From positions 49,959-113,958 of the forward strand of contig CAYVHO010000006.1 of NCBI GenBank assembly GCA_964451325.1: 64,000 nt of DNA, read 5' to 3'. The position numbers were made by a program, and so were the translations under genes. This document shows positions 1-59,907 of this stretch, piece by piece; the first letter of the stretch is position 1, and each line of letters begins with the position of its first letter. The notes below the pieces were generated by a model. It saw only the letters and a list, made by a program, of their open reading frames with translations. It searched no databases and had not been told where the DNA came from. Source of the stretch: an uncultured Nitrospira sp. (GTDB lineage: Bacteria > Nitrospirota > Nitrospiria > SBBL01 > JAADHI01).

Positions 1-139
1 TTTTCAACCACCCAAAGAACAGCTTAAACCCTTTATTGTCATTTGAGTGTTTTTTTTGTTTAAATTTTTTGTTTTTAAAGAGTGCTACATCAAATGTCTT
101 TTTGGAAATATCTATGCCAACTGAAATCATTTCTGTCAT
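1..139 (-). mobile_element. IS110-family transposase, N-terminal 46 codons only (gene runs off the left edge)
   Basis: Not in the ORF track because it is truncated. Minus-strand ATG at 139-137 is preceded by GAGGA. Translation MTEMISVGIDISKKTFDVALFKNKKFKQKKHSNDNKGFKLFFGWLK shows the V-G-I-D-x-S-K..F-D-V-A N-terminal signature of the DEDD/RuvC-like domain of IS110 transposases. Confidence 0.7.
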
Positions 140-410
140 CATTGTCCTCGCTAACCTCGTAATGCAGGCTCACCATAAATGGGGCCTTAGATACCGTCCT
201 GCGTTTTGAACAAATTCGCTTGGGGCACCTATCTGACCCACAGGTTCGAGACCTAAAGTCTTGTCGATGTCACCCAACCGTGCCAGTAAAATCATCTTAC
301 ATTGTTGGCTCTCTTAAGATACGAGGTCTTGTTTTTTGCTTCCAGGCTGATGGTTTGACTAATCCGCGAATTTGGAAGAGGGCAAGACCTCGTATCTGAC
401 CTCAGTGACT
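140..410 (-). other. Non-coding region upstream of the IS110-type transposase (candidate IS left end / structured 5' RNA)
   Basis: About 270 nt without a credible ORF between the transposase ATG (139) and the mazF stop (411). Contains the nested hairpin at 317-397. IS boundary not determinable from this window. Confidence 0.35.
317..397. repeat. Perfect 15-bp inverted repeat (317-331 / 383-397) with an inner 6-bp helix (339-344 / 373-378)
   Basis: AGATACGAGGTCTTG ... CAAGACCTCGTATCT read directly. Inner CTTCCA / TGGAAG gives a long stem with an internal loop and a 28-nt apical loop. Confidence 0.9.
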
Positions 411-764
411 TTATAGTTCTTTTAGCTCAATTAAAAGTTTAATGCCTTCTATGACTTGTTTTGCCCGAGAGGGCGACAAGGTTCCTATCTTTTCAATGAG
501 GTCAGTTTTATCAATCGTAACAAGCTGAGATATATTGACAACGCTCTGCTTCTTTAGATTGGCCTCGCCTTTTGACAATAAGACATTTCCTGGGACTCTT
601 GCCCGTTTAAGATTAGATGTCAGGGCACAGACAACCACCGTATGAATTTTACTCTGATTGAACAAATTATTTTGGATGACAACATGAGGAGGTTTGTAGC
701 CTGGTGCTGAACCCGAAGGAGTGCCCAGATCCACTCAGAATATGTCGCCCTGCCTGATCACCAT
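411..764 (-). pseudogene. mazF: MazF/PemK-family type II toxin interrupted by an in-frame TGA (735-737)
   Basis: ATG at 764-762 overlaps the antitoxin stop (ATGGTGA). Reading is MVIRQGDIF-TGA-VDLGTPSGSAPGYKPPHVVIQNN... The GDIF(W/L)VDLG strand is the conserved MazF N-terminus. The ORF track only reports the GTG-restart ORF 411-734. Confidence 0.75.
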
Positions 765-1006
765 TTTTCAGCCTTGAGCGACTTGGCATAATGTTTCTTG
801 CTTTGTTTTCTGAGCGCTGTTTCCTGTTCTGTCTCGGTATCAGAATAAACCTTGTTGATGGTTTCCAATATGATCTTGTTTCTCCGTCTATTGATGTAGT
901 CTCTTACTGCATCCGCAAAAATCTGGCTGCGTGAGAGATGTAATTCTGCTGCCAGTTCCTCAAGCGTTTTAAATAAATCGTCGGGTATGGAGATGGCTAT
1001 TTTCAT
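758..1006 (-). CDS. Ribbon-helix-helix (CopG/MazE-like) antitoxin
   Basis: Start moved to ATG 1006 (SD GAGGAA upstream). MKIAISIPDDLFKTLEELAAELHLSRSQIFADAVRDYI is a typical RHH fold sequence. Overlaps the toxin start. Confidence 0.8.
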   Translation of the reverse strand: MKIAISIPDDLFKTLEELAAELHLSRSQIFADAVRDYINRRRNKIILETINKVYSDTETEQETALRKQSKKHYAKSLKAEKW

Positions 1007-1182
1007 GGCGGTTTCCTCTAATTGTTCATTAAGGTTTTTGATATGCAGTACCGGCTTTAGACCTAAGTGATTGATTTTAAAAATAAAATATGTAAGAACA
1101 GAGCCCATTATTTGCTATAATATAACACATGTAGTAACATGCCTATATTGGTGTTGCCTAAACGGGGTTTTGGAGGTTTTGT

Positions 1183-1440
1183 ATGAGTATCACAACCGTT
1201 TCCAGCAGAGAGTTTAATCAAGATGTGAGCAAAATAAAGCGAGCTGCTTTGAATGGGCCGGTCTTTATCACTGACCGAGGTCACCCGGCGCATGTTTTAT
1301 TGACAATGGAGGAATATCAAAAAATCACGGACAAGAGGGAAAATATTGTCGAGCTCCTTGCAATGCCCGATGCGACCGACATTGATTTTGAAGCACCTCG
1401 TCTGAACAAAGCACTTTATCGACCTGCGGACTTATCATAG
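1183..1440 (+). CDS. Phd/YefM-family antitoxin
   Basis: 85 aa. SSREFNQDVSKIKRAALNGPVFITDRGHPAHVLLTMEEYQ is typical Phd/YefM. Stop overlaps the vapC start (TAGTG). Confidence 0.85.
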   Translation: MSITTVSSREFNQDVSKIKRAALNGPVFITDRGHPAHVLLTMEEYQKITDKRENIVELLAMPDATDIDFEAPRLNKALYRPADLS

Positions 1441-1883
1441 TGTATTTGTTGGATACCAATGTTATTTCTGAATTGAGAAAAGCAGGGTCGGGTAAAGCCG
1501 ATAAAAATGTCGTGGTGTGGGCCAATAGTGTTTCTGCAGCGAGCCTTTTTTTGTCGGTGATTACTATTTTAGAACTTGAAACAGGGATACTTTTGCTTGA
1601 ACGGCGAGATCCAAGGCAGGGGGCGGTGCTTCGGGCTTGGTTCAATATGAATGTGTTGCCGGCATTTTTCGGTCGTATCCTTGTGATAGATACCGTTGTT
1701 GCGCAATGTTGTGCCAAACTTCATGTTCCCAATCCACGCTCGGATCGAGACGCGATTATCGCAGCGACGGCATCAGTGCACTGTATGACGGTGGTGACAA
1801 GAAATGTCGATGATTTTAAGCCTACAGGCCTTGAAATATTGAATCCATGGGATCCCATGAAATCCGCTTCATCAGTTGAATGA
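1440..1883 (+). CDS. vapC: PIN-domain toxin VapC (FitB-like)
   Basis: 147 aa, GTG start. LLDTNVISELRK (first acidic PIN residue), ILELETG and VVTRNVDDF motifs. Confidence 0.85.
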   Translation: MYLLDTNVISELRKAGSGKADKNVVVWANSVSAASLFLSVITILELETGILLLERRDPRQGAVLRAWFNMNVLPAFFGRILVIDTVVAQCCAKLHVPNPRSDRDAIIAATASVHCMTVVTRNVDDFKPTGLEILNPWDPMKSASSVE

Positions 1884-24399: not shown

Positions 24400-26085
24400 C
24401 TATGATTGGGCTAGATTTTCCTTTCGTAATTTTTTCAGAATAAGAAAGGCTTCCACAATCATCCATATTTCCAAAATGAGAATGGCTGTGCCAATCAAGA
24501 TGGTCAGCCAGTTGGCGGAGGCATTTGTTGTGTTGAGCGCTGAGATCCAGGTGAGGATGTTGTAGATCATTGCCCCTGTGGTGATGGTGATGAGAAAAAC
24601 CATCGGAATTGCGATATGCAGCAGTGGTCTTTTGTTGCGATAAAGGTAGACAAAAAGCACGAGCAGGGTCATACCGCCAATGAGTTGATTGGTTGTGCCA
24701 AATAAGAGCCAGAGTGGGAGCCAGACTTTAGGCCCCGCCATGACAAGTGGAATGGCAGGGCCCACAGCGATGAGGGTTGCGATGTAGCGATTTTTAAGGA
24801 TTGGGATCTTGAGGGCTTCTCCCAGCTCGGAAACCACGAGGCGCTGGATGCGTGCGCCCGTATCCATAGAGGTTGTGGCAAAAGAAATGGCGAGGATGGC
24901 GACAAGGGCTTGTGCCCAAGGTCTTGGAAGCAGCAGTGCTTCTAAAAAATGCCCCGCCCCTGCGACAAAGTTTGCAATGGCGTTGATGCCGGAAGCGTTC
25001 CAGACCTCGTATTCAGAACCCCAAGAGGGTAAACCCGCAGCGACAGCCAAGGTTGCGATCAAAGCCAAGACCCCTTCGCCTAACATGCCCCCATATCCTA
25101 TAAATCGTGCATCTCCCATTTTATTGAGTTGTTTCGAGGTTGTGCCACTTGCGACGAGTCCGTGAAAACCAGAAATGGCACCGCAGGCGATGGTCACAAA
25201 AATAATCGGAAACAGGGGAGGTGCGCCCTTAGGGTTTAGATTGAGTATCGGTGCGTTCATTTCTGGATTGAGTATAAAGAGGCCGAGAAACAAGGCGATG
25301 AGTCCGACAATCAATTGATGTGAGTTGATATAGTCGCGCGGTTGCAAAAGTAGCCACACTGGCATGAGGCTTGCGATTGCAGCATAAATCAAAAGAAGAA
25401 CAGCCCAGACAATAACAGGGTTTCCGTTTTCGCCGATGAGTGGCGTCAGGGAGATGGGGAAGGCGACGCCGACTGCGACCATGGCGTAAAGGGAGAGCAG
25501 TGCAAGCACGGAAGGAATAAAGATTCCGCCTTTCTTGTTTTTGAATGTGATGCCAATGAGGATTGCGATAATGATTTCAAAATTAACCGGGATGACGGAA
25601 GCAGGGTAGCGGTCAAATAGAATGCCGATGGCAAAGGCAAAGACGGCTAAGACGACCCAGACCAGAAAATAGACGACGATTTGGAAGAGGATGTGTACGC
25701 GGGGGTTGATGACGCTACTTGCGAGTCCTCCGATGGTTTGTCCGTCCTTTCGCGCAGAAAGGACGAGCGCACCAAAATCGTGTACGGCACCAATGAAAAT
25801 CGTGCCAAAGACAATCCAAAACAAAGCGGGACCCCATCCCCAGATGACCGCAACTGTGGGGCCGATGATGGGCGCAGCACCCGCAATAGAGGTATAGTGA
25901 TGCCCCCAAAGAATGTGCCGATCTGTCGGGATGTAGTCGTAGTCGTCTCTGAGTTTCGGATTATGTGCGGGGAGTGCTTCGCTGTCGGATAGACCGAAGA
26001 CCTTCTTGCTGATGATGCGGGAGTAGCCTCGGTAGCCCAGAAAATAGAAGAGCAGGAGTACGGTGATTGCGATAAAAACAGGCAT
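24400..26085 (-). CDS. cstA: Carbon starvation protein A (CstA-family peptide/pyruvate transporter)
   Basis: 561 aa polytopic. HILWGHHYTSIAGAAPIIGP..GAVHDF typical CstA N-terminus. Confidence 0.93.
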   Translation of the reverse strand: MPVFIAITVLLLFYFLGYRGYSRIISKKVFGLSDSEALPAHNPKLRDDYDYIPTDRHILWGHHYTSIAGAAPIIGPTVAVIWGWGPALFWIVFGTIFIGAVHDFGALVLSARKDGQTIGGLASSVINPRVHILFQIVVYFLVWVVLAVFAFAIGILFDRYPASVIPVNFEIIIAILIGITFKNKKGGIFIPSVLALLSLYAMVAVGVAFPISLTPLIGENGNPVIVWAVLLLIYAAIASLMPVWLLLQPRDYINSHQLIVGLIALFLGLFILNPEMNAPILNLNPKGAPPLFPIIFVTIACGAISGFHGLVASGTTSKQLNKMGDARFIGYGGMLGEGVLALIATLAVAAGLPSWGSEYEVWNASGINAIANFVAGAGHFLEALLLPRPWAQALVAILAISFATTSMDTGARIQRLVVSELGEALKIPILKNRYIATLIAVGPAIPLVMAGPKVWLPLWLLFGTTNQLIGGMTLLVLFVYLYRNKRPLLHIAIPMVFLITITTGAMIYNILTWISALNTTNASANWLTILIGTAILILEIWMIVEAFLILKKLRKENLAQS

Positions 26086-58593: not shown

Positions 58594-59907
58594 TTGTTCG
58601 CTCGATTTACTAAAAGTATTCAAAGTATTTGCAAAATTGAGGAGTTACGCCAACGCGTTATTTTTACGGCGATGATGTTGTTTGTCTATCGCATGGGCGC
58701 GCATATCCCGACTCCAGGGATCAACAACGAACAGTTGAGTGAATTTCTCTTGGATCGAGGGGGCGCTTTGATGGGCTTTCTCGATATGTTTTCAGGGGGT
58801 GGGCTTTCTCGCCTAACCATTTTTGCCCTAGGGATCATGCCCTATATTTCGGCATCCATTATCCTGCAGCTACTGACAGTCGTGATCCCAACGCTTACAA
58901 AACTCTCAAAAGAAGGAGAGAGTGGGCGAAAAAAGATCACGCAGTATACTCGTTTTGCGACAATTGGTATCGGACTTGTACAGGCTTTTGGGATTGCGGT
59001 TGGTCTTGAAGGCATGGAAGGCGGCATTTTTGTTCAAAATCCCGGTTGGAGTTTTCGCCTGATGGCGATTATTACCATCACCGCTGGAACGGCTTTTTTG
59101 ATGTGGTTGGGTGAGCAGATTACTGAGAGAGGGATCGGAAATGGTATCTCTTTGATTATCTTTGCGGGAATCGTTGTGAGTATGCCGTCTGCGGTACTGA
59201 ATACCTTTCAGCTTTTTCAAACCGGTCAGATTAGTTTTATCTTGATTCTCGTCTTGGCTGTGATGATGATTTGCATGGTGGTCGCGATTGTCTTTCTTGA
59301 AAGTGGGCGACGCAAAATTCCGGTTCAGTATGCAAAACGCGTTGTCGGTCGTAAAATCTATGGTGGGCAGAGCACGCATATCCCTCTGAAAATCAATACA
59401 GCGGGGGTTATTCCGCCTATTTTTGCATCATCCATTATTGCTTTTCCTGCCACAATCGCAGGGTTTGTTTCCGTGCCTTGGGTTCAGTCTCTCGGACAAA
59501 ACCTGTCCCCGGGTACACTTTTTTACACCCTGCTTTATGCAGCCCTCATTATTTTCTTTGCGTTTTTCTATACGGCAGTGGTGTTAAATCCTGTCGACAT
59601 GGCTGACAATATGAAAAAATATGGTGGCTTCATTCCGGGCGTGAGGCCCGGTCAAAAGACTTCAGACTATATTTATCGTGTTTTAACACGGATTACTTTC
59701 GCAGGGGCGTTTTATTTGGCCCTCATAGCGATTATTCCAGAAATATTGATTTACCGGTTTAATGTTCCCTTTGCTTTTGGTGGGACCTCTTTGCTGATCG
59801 TTATTGGTGTTGGTATGGATACGGCACAGCAGATTGAAACCCATATGTTGACTCGAAATTATGAAGGTTTTATGAAAAAAGGCAAAGTCAAGGACAGAGG
59901 GTTTTAG
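58594..59907 (+). CDS. secY: Preprotein translocase subunit SecY
   Basis: TTG 58594 after TAGGAGA. The ORF-track frame extends back into rplO. KIEELRQRVIFT, 10-TM profile. Confidence 0.97.
   Translation: MFARFTKSIQSICKIEELRQRVIFTAMMLFVYRMGAHIPTPGINNEQLSEFLLDRGGALMGFLDMFSGGGLSRLTIFALGIMPYISASIILQLLTVVIPTLTKLSKEGESGRKKITQYTRFATIGIGLVQAFGIAVGLEGMEGGIFVQNPGWSFRLMAIITITAGTAFLMWLGEQITERGIGNGISLIIFAGIVVSMPSAVLNTFQLFQTGQISFILILVLAVMMICMVVAIVFLESGRRKIPVQYAKRVVGRKIYGGQSTHIPLKINTAGVIPPIFASSIIAFPATIAGFVSVPWVQSLGQNLSPGTLFYTLLYAALIIFFAFFYTAVVLNPVDMADNMKKYGGFIPGVRPGQKTSDYIYRVLTRITFAGAFYLALIAIIPEILIYRFNVPFAFGGTSLLIVIGVGMDTAQQIETHMLTRNYEGFMKKGKVKDRGF

What the first reader, a model, noticed from the sequence alone, without database searches (positions are those of the whole stretch)
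1..410. IS110-type transposase 5' end with a 270-nt structured upstream leader: candidate bridge-RNA-type guide, or a palindromic insertion target
Seen in the sequence:
- A truncated minus-strand gene starts at 139 with a clear IS110 N-terminus (VGIDISKKTFDVAL).
- The 270 nt upstream of it (140-410) have no credible ORF.
- That region contains a perfect 15-bp inverted repeat (317-331 / 383-397), continued after an internal loop by a 6-bp helix (339-344 / 373-378).
- The motif TACGAGGT recurs at about 150-160.

Established knowledge:
- IS110-family elements lack classical terminal inverted repeats.
- The IS110 subgroup carries a structured non-coding RNA in the 5' non-coding end. This is the bridge RNA characterised for IS621 in 2024. 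Its internal loops base-pair with the target and donor DNA.
- Several family members insert into REP-like palindromes.

Inference: the hairpin is either part of such a guide RNA or the palindromic host site beside which the element inserted. It lies only 13 nt from the mazF stop. Either outcome would define this element's target specificity.
Basis: partly seen in the sequence, partly recalled or inferred. Interest (0 to 1): 0.6.

Follow-up and report, generated by a model that had tools for sequence, protein, structure and literature searches.

The report
Bridge-RNA insertion sequence in a palindrome
The left end of the window holds one end of a small IS621-like jumping gene whose upstream leader encodes a guide ("bridge") RNA, while the conspicuous hairpin is mostly the host palindrome it jumped into, so this is a well-defined new member of a known kind.

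Summary
The sequence features are real. They are a 15-bp perfect inverted repeat (317-331/383-397), an inner 6-bp helix, the repeated TACGAGGT motif, and an IS110-type N-terminus starting at 139 on the minus strand.

I recovered the source contig and the whole element. It is 1161 bp and encodes a 319-aa recombinase that is 44% identical to IS621. About 28 independent insertions of relatives fix its ends.
- The element starts at window 323 (minus strand), after a CT core at 325-324.
- It ends outside the window with ...GACGGTATCT.

The leader at 148-309 (minus strand) encodes a bridge RNA.
- A covariance model built only from relatives hits 148-287 at 138 bits (E about 2e-33).
- The same model also hits the experimentally characterised IS621 bridge RNA.
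- 18 of 34 base pairs covary.
- All four guide segments match this copy's own junctions.
- Target guides covary with flanks across the family.

The hairpin is not part of that RNA. Positions 324-397 are host DNA: a palindromic target whose 3' arm received the element. The last 7 bp of the stem are the element's first 7 bases. The 5' arm carries a matching 7-nt insert that looks like the scar of an earlier, oppositely oriented insertion.

Verdict: new member of a known kind, of modest interest.

The parts
1..139 (-). First 46 codons of the IS110-family (IS621-like) DEDD/Ser recombinase. The full gene is 319 aa and continues beyond the window's left edge (L002 7998-8957).
   Evidence: Translation. 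PF01548 + PF02371. NCBIfam NF033542 at 234 bits, cutoff 140. 44% identity to the IS621 recombinase with catalytic D/E/D/D/S aligned.
1..323 (-). The part of the 1161-bp insertion sequence that lies in the window. The left end (LE) starts at 323 with CGTATCTT.
   Evidence: Independent insertions share sequence only from ...AAGACCT|CGTATCTT to GACGGTATCT|GACCC. Element length is 1161-1166 bp at about 28 sites.
324..325 (-). CT core dinucleotide at the left junction. The second copy follows the right end, outside the window.
   Evidence: CT precedes the LE and ends the RE in all copies. IS621 has the same core.
326..332 (-). Left target (LT) ACAAGAC: host sequence recognised by the left target guide.
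   Evidence: Conserved at independent insertion sites. With the core it matches LTG 264-256 at 9 of 9 positions, one of them a wobble.
316..321 (-). TATCTT, the -10-like hexamer of a promoter that is completed only in the excised circle. The -35 TTGATT lies at the end of the recombinase gene, 17 nt away across the RE-LE junction.
   Evidence: TTGAYN-17 nt-TATCTT is found in 40 of 40 distinct reconstituted junctions. IS621 precedent. Expression not tested.
282..309 (-). 5' stem-loop of the predicted bridge RNA.
   Evidence: Single-sequence fold. Relatives have a hairpin of different sequence at the same place. IS621 architecture.
217..280 (-). Target-binding stem-loop. LTG ACAAGACUU at 264-256, inner hairpin at 254-242, RTG GGGUCAG at 239-233, handshake AUA at 232-230.
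   Evidence: Helices 1 and 3 covary. RTG+HSG is the reverse complement of the RE junction TATCTGACCC. LTG and RTG covary with flanks across relatives.
148..204 (-). Donor-binding stem-loop. LDG GACGGUAUCU at 198-189, inner hairpin at 188-165, RDG UACGAG at 161-156, handshake GU at 155-154.
   Evidence: LDG is identical to the last 10 nt of the element (0 of 2000 shuffles). RDG+HSG is the reverse complement of the LE junction ACCT|CGTA. Helices 4, 6 and 7 covary.
148..287 (-). Covariance-model hit (target- plus donor-binding loops), model built without this sequence.
   Evidence: 138.4 bits, E=1.9e-33, the only hit in 64 kb. The same model hits the IS621 bridge RNA with guides aligned to guides.
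317..397 (-). The hairpin. 5' arm 397-383, inner helix 378-373/344-339, 3' arm 331-317. It is host palindrome except for 323-317, which is the element's end.
   Evidence: Boundary. The related locus L004 has the same loop and an intact inverted empty target.
383..401 (+). Inverted copy of the target carrying a 7-nt insert: CAAGAC-CT-CGTATCT-GACC. This is a footprint-like trace of an element end in the 5' arm.
   Evidence: Read directly from the sequence. L004 has the homologous arm without the 7 nt. The origin is inferred.
411..764 (-). mazF (PemK-like toxin), upstream and on the same strand. The annotated ORF is 411-734. An ATG at 764-762 is followed by an in-frame TGA at 737-735.
   Evidence: PF02452. 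With TGA read as Trp the profile is covered 1-108 at 91 bits instead of 9-108 at 75 bits.

Best explanation
Window 1-323 (minus strand) is the left part of a complete 1161-bp IS110-group insertion sequence, a relative of IS621.

Its 184-nt left end encodes a bridge RNA of about 165 nt with three parts:
- a 5' stem-loop (309-282);
- a target-binding stem-loop (280-217);
- a donor-binding stem-loop (204-148).

By analogy with IS621 (inferred, not tested here), the RNA is transcribed mainly from a promoter that forms only when the element circularises: TTGATT at the right end, 17 nt, then TATCTT at 321-316. The recombinase binds this RNA.

The guide segments then pair as follows.
- ACAAGACUU and GGGUCAG pair with the two strands of the 14-nt target ACAAGAC-CT-GACCC.
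- GACGGUAUCU and UACGAG pair with the joined element ends.
- The handshake bases AUA and GU pair with the partner DNA after strand exchange at the CT core.

The hairpin at 317-397 is not part of this RNA. It is a host palindrome downstream of mazF whose two arms each carried the target in opposite orientation. The element inserted into the 3' arm.

The stem is a perfect 15 bp because the element's first 7 bases (CGTATCT) are mirrored by a 7-nt insert in the 5' arm. That insert is most simply a scar of an earlier, oppositely oriented insertion that was lost imprecisely.

A left-flank hairpin that pairs with the left target is a reported feature of IS110 targets (ISPpu10). It may help integration and shield the element from mazEF read-through.
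For: Shown here:
- The source contig extends the window leftwards and gives an intact 319-aa recombinase. It scores above the NCBIfam IS110 cutoff, has both Pfam domains and is 44% identical to IS621 with the catalytic residues aligned.
- The ends are fixed by independent insertions of 88%-identical copies (L005, L008) and of about 25 further relatives.
- For structure, 34 consensus pairs are 97% paired and 18 carry compensatory changes. No shuffle of 500 reaches this, and slid controls give 29-49% paired.
- A model built from 27 relatives, with this locus and its 88% group excluded, hits 148-287(-) at 138 bits. It also hits the IS621 bridge RNA at 35 bits (E 1e-8 to 2e-7) with guide regions aligned to guide regions.
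- In this copy the four guide matches are 10, 10, 8 and 7 (9 with wobble) nt long. Shuffles of the leader reach them jointly 0 times in 2000.
- Across the family, target guides match their own flanks at 7.8 of 9 positions against 4.4 of 9 for other flanks. Several relatives with different targets match 9 of 9. The right target guide covaries in L014 and L025.
- The junction promoter is present in 40 of 40 distinct junctions.
- For the host palindrome, L004 has the same loop with an intact inverted empty target 86 nt upstream. Palindromic twin targets recur in L029, L030, L033, L040, L051, L092, L101 and L102.

Published rules used: strand polarity of guides, handshake guides, left-flank target hairpin.
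Against: - No expression data: transcription, the RNA ends and binding to the recombinase are inferred from IS621.
- The left target guide has U where the core has C (ACAAGACUU against ACAAGACCT). This is a wobble that most close relatives share.
- Single-sequence folding of 140-310 is not better than shuffles (z=-0.9), so the structure rests on covariation.
- The footprint reading rests on one locus; no second example was found. The alignment to L004 over that arm is short.
- The hairpin lacks a U-tract, and no terminator-like site is scored, so an insulator role is unproven.
Confidence: 0.9

Rival explanations
1. The whole hairpin (317-397) belongs to the element and is the 5' stem-loop, or a guide-bearing loop, of the bridge RNA.
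For: The hairpin is very stable. It sits upstream of the recombinase within a leader of IS110-like length. It shares TACGAGGT with the leader. Three Logan contigs of the 88% relative (L006-L008) carry a related loop sequence upstream.
Against: - L005 and about 20 other insertions have unrelated sequence immediately upstream of the 7-nt left target.
- The loop is only about 75% conserved where the leader is about 95% conserved.
- The conserved -10 lies at 321-316, downstream of most of the hairpin.
- The covariance model and the IS621 architecture are fully accounted for by 148-309.
Confidence: 0.03
2. The hairpin is primarily the transcription terminator or insulator of the mazEF operon, and the element merely landed next to it.
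For: The hairpin is 13 nt from the mazF stop on the same strand. In ISPpu10 the target-derived left-flank hairpin plus the element terminus acts as a terminator. Many relatives' right flanks are T-rich after GACCCC.
Against: - No U-run follows the stem: the next bases are UUAAGAG, and no terminator-like site is scored.
- The 51-nt loop is far larger than in intrinsic terminators.
- In L004 the same element exists without mazEF upstream.
- This reading is compatible with, not exclusive of, the host-target reading.
Confidence: 0.3
3. The 7 extra base pairs of the stem did not come from a previous insertion. They arose by arm-to-arm copying (hairpin-templated repair or gene conversion) after the present insertion, or from a truncated inverted copy of the element's end.
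For: - The 5' arm is the exact reverse complement of the canonical left junction over 15 nt.
- No second footprint example was found.
- The arm also resembles the reverse complement of the right end (AAGAC..GTATCTGACC).
Against: - The bases after the insert (GACC) match the right target. They also align with L004's homologous arm (GACTCC), as expected for an insertion within an intact inverted target.
- The footprint model needs no mismatches.
- The donor junction has two CT cores 7 nt apart within a tandem GTATCT-GTATCT, which gives a simple route by register slippage.
Confidence: 0.3
4. The palindrome is a REP-type multi-copy host repeat.
For: IS110 members often target REPs. Twin inverted targets are common in the family's flanks. 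L008 has the same left flank as L006 but a different right flank.
Against: No other copy of the arm, loop or 14-nt target (up to 2 mismatches; only one weak match at 59497) occurs in the 64-kb window. No exact hairpin was found in 185,579 representative genomes.
Confidence: 0.15

Closest known systems
IS621 (E. coli), IS110 group, with its 177-nt bridge RNA (Durrant et al. 2024, PMC11208160; Hiraizumi et al. 2024, PMC11208158)
   Same: - The recombinase is 44% identical over 315 aa, with the same catalytic residues.
- The bridge RNA lies in the left end and runs up to the start codon.
- The architecture is a 5' stem-loop plus target- and donor-binding stem-loops.
- The core is CT.
- Left guides equal the top strand, and right guides are the reverse complement.
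- Handshake bases are present.
- A promoter spans the circle junction.
- A model built from this family hits the IS621 RNA.
- The donor guide regions are alike in sequence: GGACGGUAUCU against GGACAGUAUC, and ACGAGGUUAG against GCAAGGUUGG.
   Different: - The element is shorter (1161 against about 1280 bp), with a right end of only 17 nt.
- The target is different (ACAAGAC-CT-GACCC).
- The left target guide carries U opposite the first core base.
- The donor junction carries a tandem GTATCT.
- No experimental data exist for this element.
ISPpu10 (Pseudomonas putida): 'structure-gated' bridge recombinase (bioRxiv 10.64898/2026.03.19.712850)
   Same: The target has a left-flank hairpin in which an upstream sequence pairs with the left target. 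Targets occur as convergent pairs. The hairpin is proposed to potentiate integration and to insulate the resident element.
   Different: - ISPpu10 targets abundant REPs; here the palindrome is not repeated in 64 kb.
- Here the loop is 51 nt and the stem extends 7 bp into the element through a footprint-like insert.
- Here a 5' stem-loop is present in the RNA, whereas ISPpu10 is reported to lack one.
IS1111 subgroup elements (seekRNA or bridge RNA in the right end; some target integron attC sites)
   Same: DEDD/Ser recombinase family, RNA-guided, and a preference for palindromic sites.
   Different: - In IS1111 the guide RNA sits downstream of the gene in a long right end, and subterminal inverted repeats are 7-17 bp.
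- Here the right end is 17 nt, the RNA is upstream, and the subterminal repeat is only TCTTAA/TTAAGA.

Membership tests
IS110 family, IS110 group recombinase | [quoted passage not shown] | tested here: met
   PF01548 at residues 7-153 (E=1.4e-25) and PF02371 at 194-275 (E=7e-26). NF033542 at 234 bits against a cutoff of 140. Only residues 1-46 lie inside the window.
IS110 family, IS110 group recombinase | Catalytic D, E, D, D and Ser (IS621 D11, E60, D102, D105, S241) | tested here: met
   The pairwise alignment places D10, E58, D100, D103 and S239 opposite them. The residue list comes from PMC11208158.
IS110 family, IS110 group recombinase | No long terminal inverted repeats, element flanked by a short core, and a left end longer than the right end | tested here: met
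   CT on both sides. LE is 184 nt and RE is 17 nt. Only a 6-bp subterminal repeat is present.
Bridge RNA (IS621 type) | [quoted passage not shown] | tested here: met
   Consensus structure with 18 of 34 covarying pairs, 97% paired, 0 of 500 shuffles. Single-sequence fold gives three stem-loops.
Bridge RNA (IS621 type) | The first loop matches the target flanks on both sides of the core (left guide = top strand, right guide = reverse complement) | tested here: met
   ACAAGACUU against ACAAGACCT, and GGGUCAG against CT+GACCC. Family-wide covariation: 7.8 of 9 for own flanks against 4.4 of 9 for others. Variants L014 and L025.
Bridge RNA (IS621 type) | The second loop matches the element's own ends (donor) | tested here: met
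   GACGGUAUCU equals the last 10 nt of the element. UACGAG is the reverse complement of CT+CGTA.
Bridge RNA (IS621 type) | Handshake bases next to the right guides that pair with the non-cognate DNA | tested here: met
   AUA pairs with donor TAT. GU pairs with target AC. Position 7 discriminates as in IS621.
Bridge RNA (IS621 type) | Detectable similarity in sequence and structure to the characterised IS621 RNA | tested here: met
   Model R1 hits L001 1601-1745 over its full length at 35.2 bits, E=1e-8 to 2e-7. Rfam 15 has no such family: the IS621 positive control gives no hit, so the Rfam miss in the window says nothing.
Bridge RNA (IS621 type) | Promoter reconstituted across the RE-LE junction of the circle | tested here: inconclusive
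   TTGATT-17 nt-TATCTT in this element and in 40 of 40 distinct junctions. This is a sequence match only.
Bridge RNA (IS621 type) | Discrete transcript bound by the recombinase and required for recombination | not testable with these tools
   No expression or biochemical data are available.
REP / multi-copy palindromic host repeat | Many copies per genome | tested here: not met
   No further copy in 64 kb and none in GTDB representative genomes by exact pattern. The whole host genome was not available.
Intrinsic terminator | G+C-rich stem with a short loop, followed by a U-run | tested here: not met
   The loop is 51 nt, the tail is UUAAGAG, and no site was scored.
IS1111 subgroup | Guide RNA in a long right end and subterminal inverted repeats of 7-17 bp | tested here: not met
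   The right end is 17 nt. The RNA is in the left end.

The most novel reading that the evidence does not exclude
The 7-nt insert in the 5' arm (CAAGAC-CT-CGTATCT-GACC) may be a genuine scar left by a bridge recombinase.

The family's donor junction carries two CT cores 7 nt apart (GGTAT-CT-CGTAT-CT). Insertion in one register and excision in the other would leave exactly this sequence.

That would mean IS110-type 'scarless' elements can leave footprints. Twin inverted targets could then be converted into longer perfect palindromes that flank, and possibly insulate, the resident copy.
Probability: 0.35. Interest if true: 0.45.

Novelty: new member of a known kind. Interest (0 to 1): 0.3.

Why it matters
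- It gives a fully delimited natural bridge-recombinase system: a 1161-bp element, a 319-aa enzyme, an RNA of about 165 nt and a 14-nt target. The system belongs to an uncultured marine-sediment lineage.
- The element has a family of relatives whose left target guides have naturally been reprogrammed to other sites. Such compact orthologues with mapped guides are the raw material for programmable recombinases.
- For annotation, the conspicuous hairpin beside an IS110 gene should be read as the insertion site, not as the guide RNA. An Rfam miss is uninformative here because Rfam has no bridge-RNA model.
- The possible 7-nt scar and the twin-target palindrome are small but testable hints about fidelity and target structure.

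Tried and rejected
- Rfam scan of 1-1200 gave only miRNA-like noise on the hairpin. I rejected this as evidence after the IS621 positive control also gave no hit.
- The word-index protein search with the 46-aa fragment found nothing.
- The exact hairpin pattern found nothing in GTDB representative genomes.
- blastn of 1-420 against plasmids found nothing.
- phmmer of the fragment gave only relatives of 50-60% identity.
- The breakthrough was an exact look-up of the neighbouring Phd antitoxin, which returned the source contig.
- Two alternative boundaries were considered and rejected. One lay at CACT|GAGG upstream of the hairpin. The other lay at CGTATCT|TAAGAG after the whole 3' arm. All other copies begin with (C/T)GTATCTT after CT, and only the 325-324 core puts all four guides in register.
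- My first automated extraction of left target guides was faulty. I replaced it with an alignment-column rule.
- The TACGAGGTCT-like match at 25000-25014 lies inside a 561-aa ORF and is taken as chance.
- Thermodynamic z-scores of the leader are weak (-1.97 for 140-410; -0.9 for 140-310) and were not used as evidence.
- An attC-site reading of the palindrome was dropped because the R'/R'' consensus is absent (sequence inspection, own knowledge).

Full report
**Observation**

The minus strand of window 1-139 translates to MTEMISVGIDISKKTFDVAL.... This matches the start of the IS110 DEDD domain (PF01548 positions 1-41, E=7e-4). The inverted repeat 317-331/383-397 is a perfect 15 bp with 51 nt between the arms. 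An inner CTTCCA/TGGAAG helix lies at 373-378/339-344. The hairpin folds at -30.4 kcal/mol, with z=-4.4. TACGAGGT occurs four times in the window against 0.72 expected. The gene at 411-734(-) is a PemK/MazF toxin that ends 13 nt from the hairpin. So the description is accurate.

**Getting the whole element**

The fragment alone led nowhere. An exact look-up of the neighbouring Phd antitoxin returned the source contig, JGI 3300033050 Ga0348266_1000111 (98 kb). I hold it as locus L002, where window x equals L002 x+8818.
- The recombinase is intact at 319 aa.
- It has PF01548 and PF02371.
- It passes NCBIfam NF033542, 'IS110 family RNA-guided transposase', at 234 bits against a cutoff of 140.
- It is 44% identical to the IS621 recombinase over 315 aa. 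D10, E58, D100, D103 and S239 lie opposite IS621 D11, E60, D102, D105 and S241.

**Ends of the element**

An 88%-identical relative occurs at several sites, and two collection scans gave 115 more loci. Alignment of both sides shows that independent insertions share sequence only between ...ACAAGACCT|CGTATCTT... and ...GACGGTATCT|GACCC. About 28 sites give an element of 1161-1166 bp. In window coordinates, on the minus strand:
- the left target ACAAGAC is 332-326;
- the CT core is 325-324;
- the element starts at 323.

The right end is outside the window, with its last base at L002 7981. The conserved flanks are 7+2 nt on the left and 5 nt on the right. These are exactly the lengths of the guides described below.

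**The leader encodes a bridge RNA**

I used the published IS621 rules. [quoted passage not shown] The 3' side is the reverse complement of core plus right half-site. Two or three handshake bases pair with the partner DNA after exchange. Under these rules the leader contains, in the right order:
- LTG ACAAGACUU (264-256), against ACAAGACCT, with one wobble;
- RTG+HSG GGGUCAG-AUA (239-230), the reverse complement of the right junction TAT-CT-GACCC;
- LDG GACGGUAUCU (198-189), identical to the last 10 nt of the element;
- RDG+HSG UACGAG-GU (161-154), the reverse complement of the left junction AC-CT-CGTA.

Shuffles of the leader reach these match lengths in 107, 3, 0 and 38 of 2000 trials respectively, and never jointly.

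**Comparative support**

I aligned the two-loop region of 27 relatives (61-72% recombinase identity), leaving out this locus and its 88% group.
- RNAalifold gives two stem-loops with internal loops and 34 pairs, 18 of them with compensatory changes.
- 97.1% of cells are paired, 0 of 500 shuffles reach the covariation, and slid controls give 29-49% paired.
- A covariance model from this alignment hits the window once, at 148-287(-), at 138.4 bits and E=1.9e-33.
- The model also hits the experimentally characterised IS621 bridge RNA over its full length (L001 1601-1745, 35.2 bits, E=1e-8 to 2e-7). IS621's LTG, RTG, LDG and RDG align to the corresponding model positions.
- It further hits more distant relatives from Wolbachia, Massilia and Nodosilinea.

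Guides covary with flanks. A second subfamily carries other left target guides (AUCGAGUCU, AAUUACUCU, UUGCUCUCU and others) that match their own left flanks at 9 of 9 positions. Overall the match is 7.8 of 9 for own flanks against 4.4 of 9 for other flanks. The right target guide changes together with the right flank in L014 (GGGAUAG with ATCCC) and L025.

Rfam has no bridge-RNA family. The IS621 positive control gives no hit, so the negative Rfam scan of the window is uninformative.

**Promoter**

Joining the right and left ends gives TTGATT, a 17-nt spacer, then TATCTT (window 321-316). The same arrangement is present in 40 of 40 distinct junctions, down to 40% recombinase identity. This parallels the IS621 junction promoter. 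It places the RNA start near 309, upstream of a 5' stem-loop at 309-282. Expression itself is inferred.

**What the hairpin is**

Positions 324-397 are outside the element.
- L005 and some twenty other insertions have unrelated sequence there.
- The related locus L004 shares synteny but lacks mazEF. It has the same loop (95% over 63 nt). It also has, 86 nt upstream, an intact inverted empty target GGGGTCAGGTCTTGTT facing AACAAGACCT|[element]|GACCCC.
- Reconstructed empty sites of other relatives also lie in one arm of an inverted repeat whose other arm carries the inverted target. This includes relatives with different targets, such as L030 (20-bp arms), L040, L101 and L102.

So the host site is a palindrome with twin targets, and the element sits in its 3' arm. 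A recent preprint reports that ISPpu10 and many IS110 elements have such a left-flank hairpin pairing with the left target. In that work the hairpin raised integration efficiency and acted as an insulator after integration. Here I find no U-run and no scored terminator, so that role is only a possibility. The palindrome is not a multi-copy repeat in this 64-kb window.

**Why the stem is a perfect 15 bp**

The 3' arm is host CAAGACCT plus the element's first 7 bases, CGTATCT. The 5' arm read on the plus strand (383-401) is CAAGAC-CT-CGTATCT-GACC. That is the inverted target with a 7-nt insert between the core and the right target. L004's homologous arm lacks those 7 nt.

Seven extra complementary bases are not expected by chance (about 6e-5), so they derive from an element end. 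The simplest route is an earlier insertion in the opposite orientation that was lost imprecisely. The donor junction carries two CT cores 7 nt apart, GGTAT-CT-CGTAT-CT. Use of different registers for insertion and excision would leave exactly this scar. Arm-to-arm copying or a truncated inverted end are alternatives. This step is inference from a single locus.

**Verdict**

The bridge RNA is at 148-309(-), and the hairpin is the host palindromic target plus 7 bases of the element.

The system works like IS621 and meets every membership feature that could be tested in silico. Transcription and RNA-protein function remain untested. It is a new member of a known kind.

Interest is modest (0.3). 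What raises it slightly is the clean natural series of reprogrammed target guides, the twin-target palindrome and the possible scar.

Noticed in passing
window 735-764 (minus strand): mazF appears to start at ATG 764-762, overlapping the antitoxin stop. It has an in-frame TGA at 737-735 where a conserved Trp is expected (MVIRQGDIF*VDLG). With W in place of the stop, the PemK profile is covered 1-108 at 91 bits instead of 9-108 at 75 bits. So the toxin is probably inactivated, or restarts at GTG 734.
   Followed up: partly
L002 7953-7980 (just left of the window, right flank of the element): The right flank begins with a perfect tandem duplication, GACCCCTTATTCAT x2, that starts exactly at the element boundary. 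Similar repeated GACCCC-containing motifs follow the element in L092, L029 and L026. The origin is unknown.
   Followed up: no
L002 7880-7893 (outside the window, 88 nt beyond the right end): A second target-like site, CAAGACCTGCCCCC (1 mismatch to the 14-nt target), lies in the same orientation as the occupied one. The locus therefore carries three target-like motifs within about 300 bp of host DNA.
   Followed up: no
window 411-1883 and L002 1-2: Toxin-antitoxin modules cluster next to the element: RHH-MazF (411-1108, minus strand), Phd-PIN (1183-1883, plus strand) and a ParE toxin further left on the contig. The related locus L004 has Phd-PIN but no mazEF at the same place.
   Followed up: partly
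L001 1470-1580 (E. coli NZ_CP024240.1): In this E. coli locus a complete IS621 is preceded by the first approximately 70 nt of another IS621 left end. That fragment stops exactly after the DNA encoding the left target guide (ATCGGGCCT). It looks like IS621 inserted into the target-mimicking guide sequence of a resident copy.
   Followed up: no
L017 1-143 and L023 ~760-830: L017 has a deletion derivative whose left end jumps from the 5' region straight to the right donor guide, so it lacks most of the bridge RNA. L023 has a 26-nt solo left-end fragment followed by AAGACCT and a complete element.
   Followed up: no
window 25000-25014: CCAGACCTCGTATTC resembles the element's left junction (11 of 15). 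It lies inside a 561-aa ORF (24400-26085, minus strand), so it is taken as chance.
   Followed up: yes
L095-L100, L107-L110, L119 (Wolbachia); L101, L102 (Massilia): Recombinases about 40% identical, in Wolbachia and Massilia, carry leaders that the family model still detects (46-61 bits in Wolbachia). They have the same GACGGTATCT right end and junction promoter. The Massilia copies target GCCCACCCT|ACG inside tight palindromes.
   Followed up: partly
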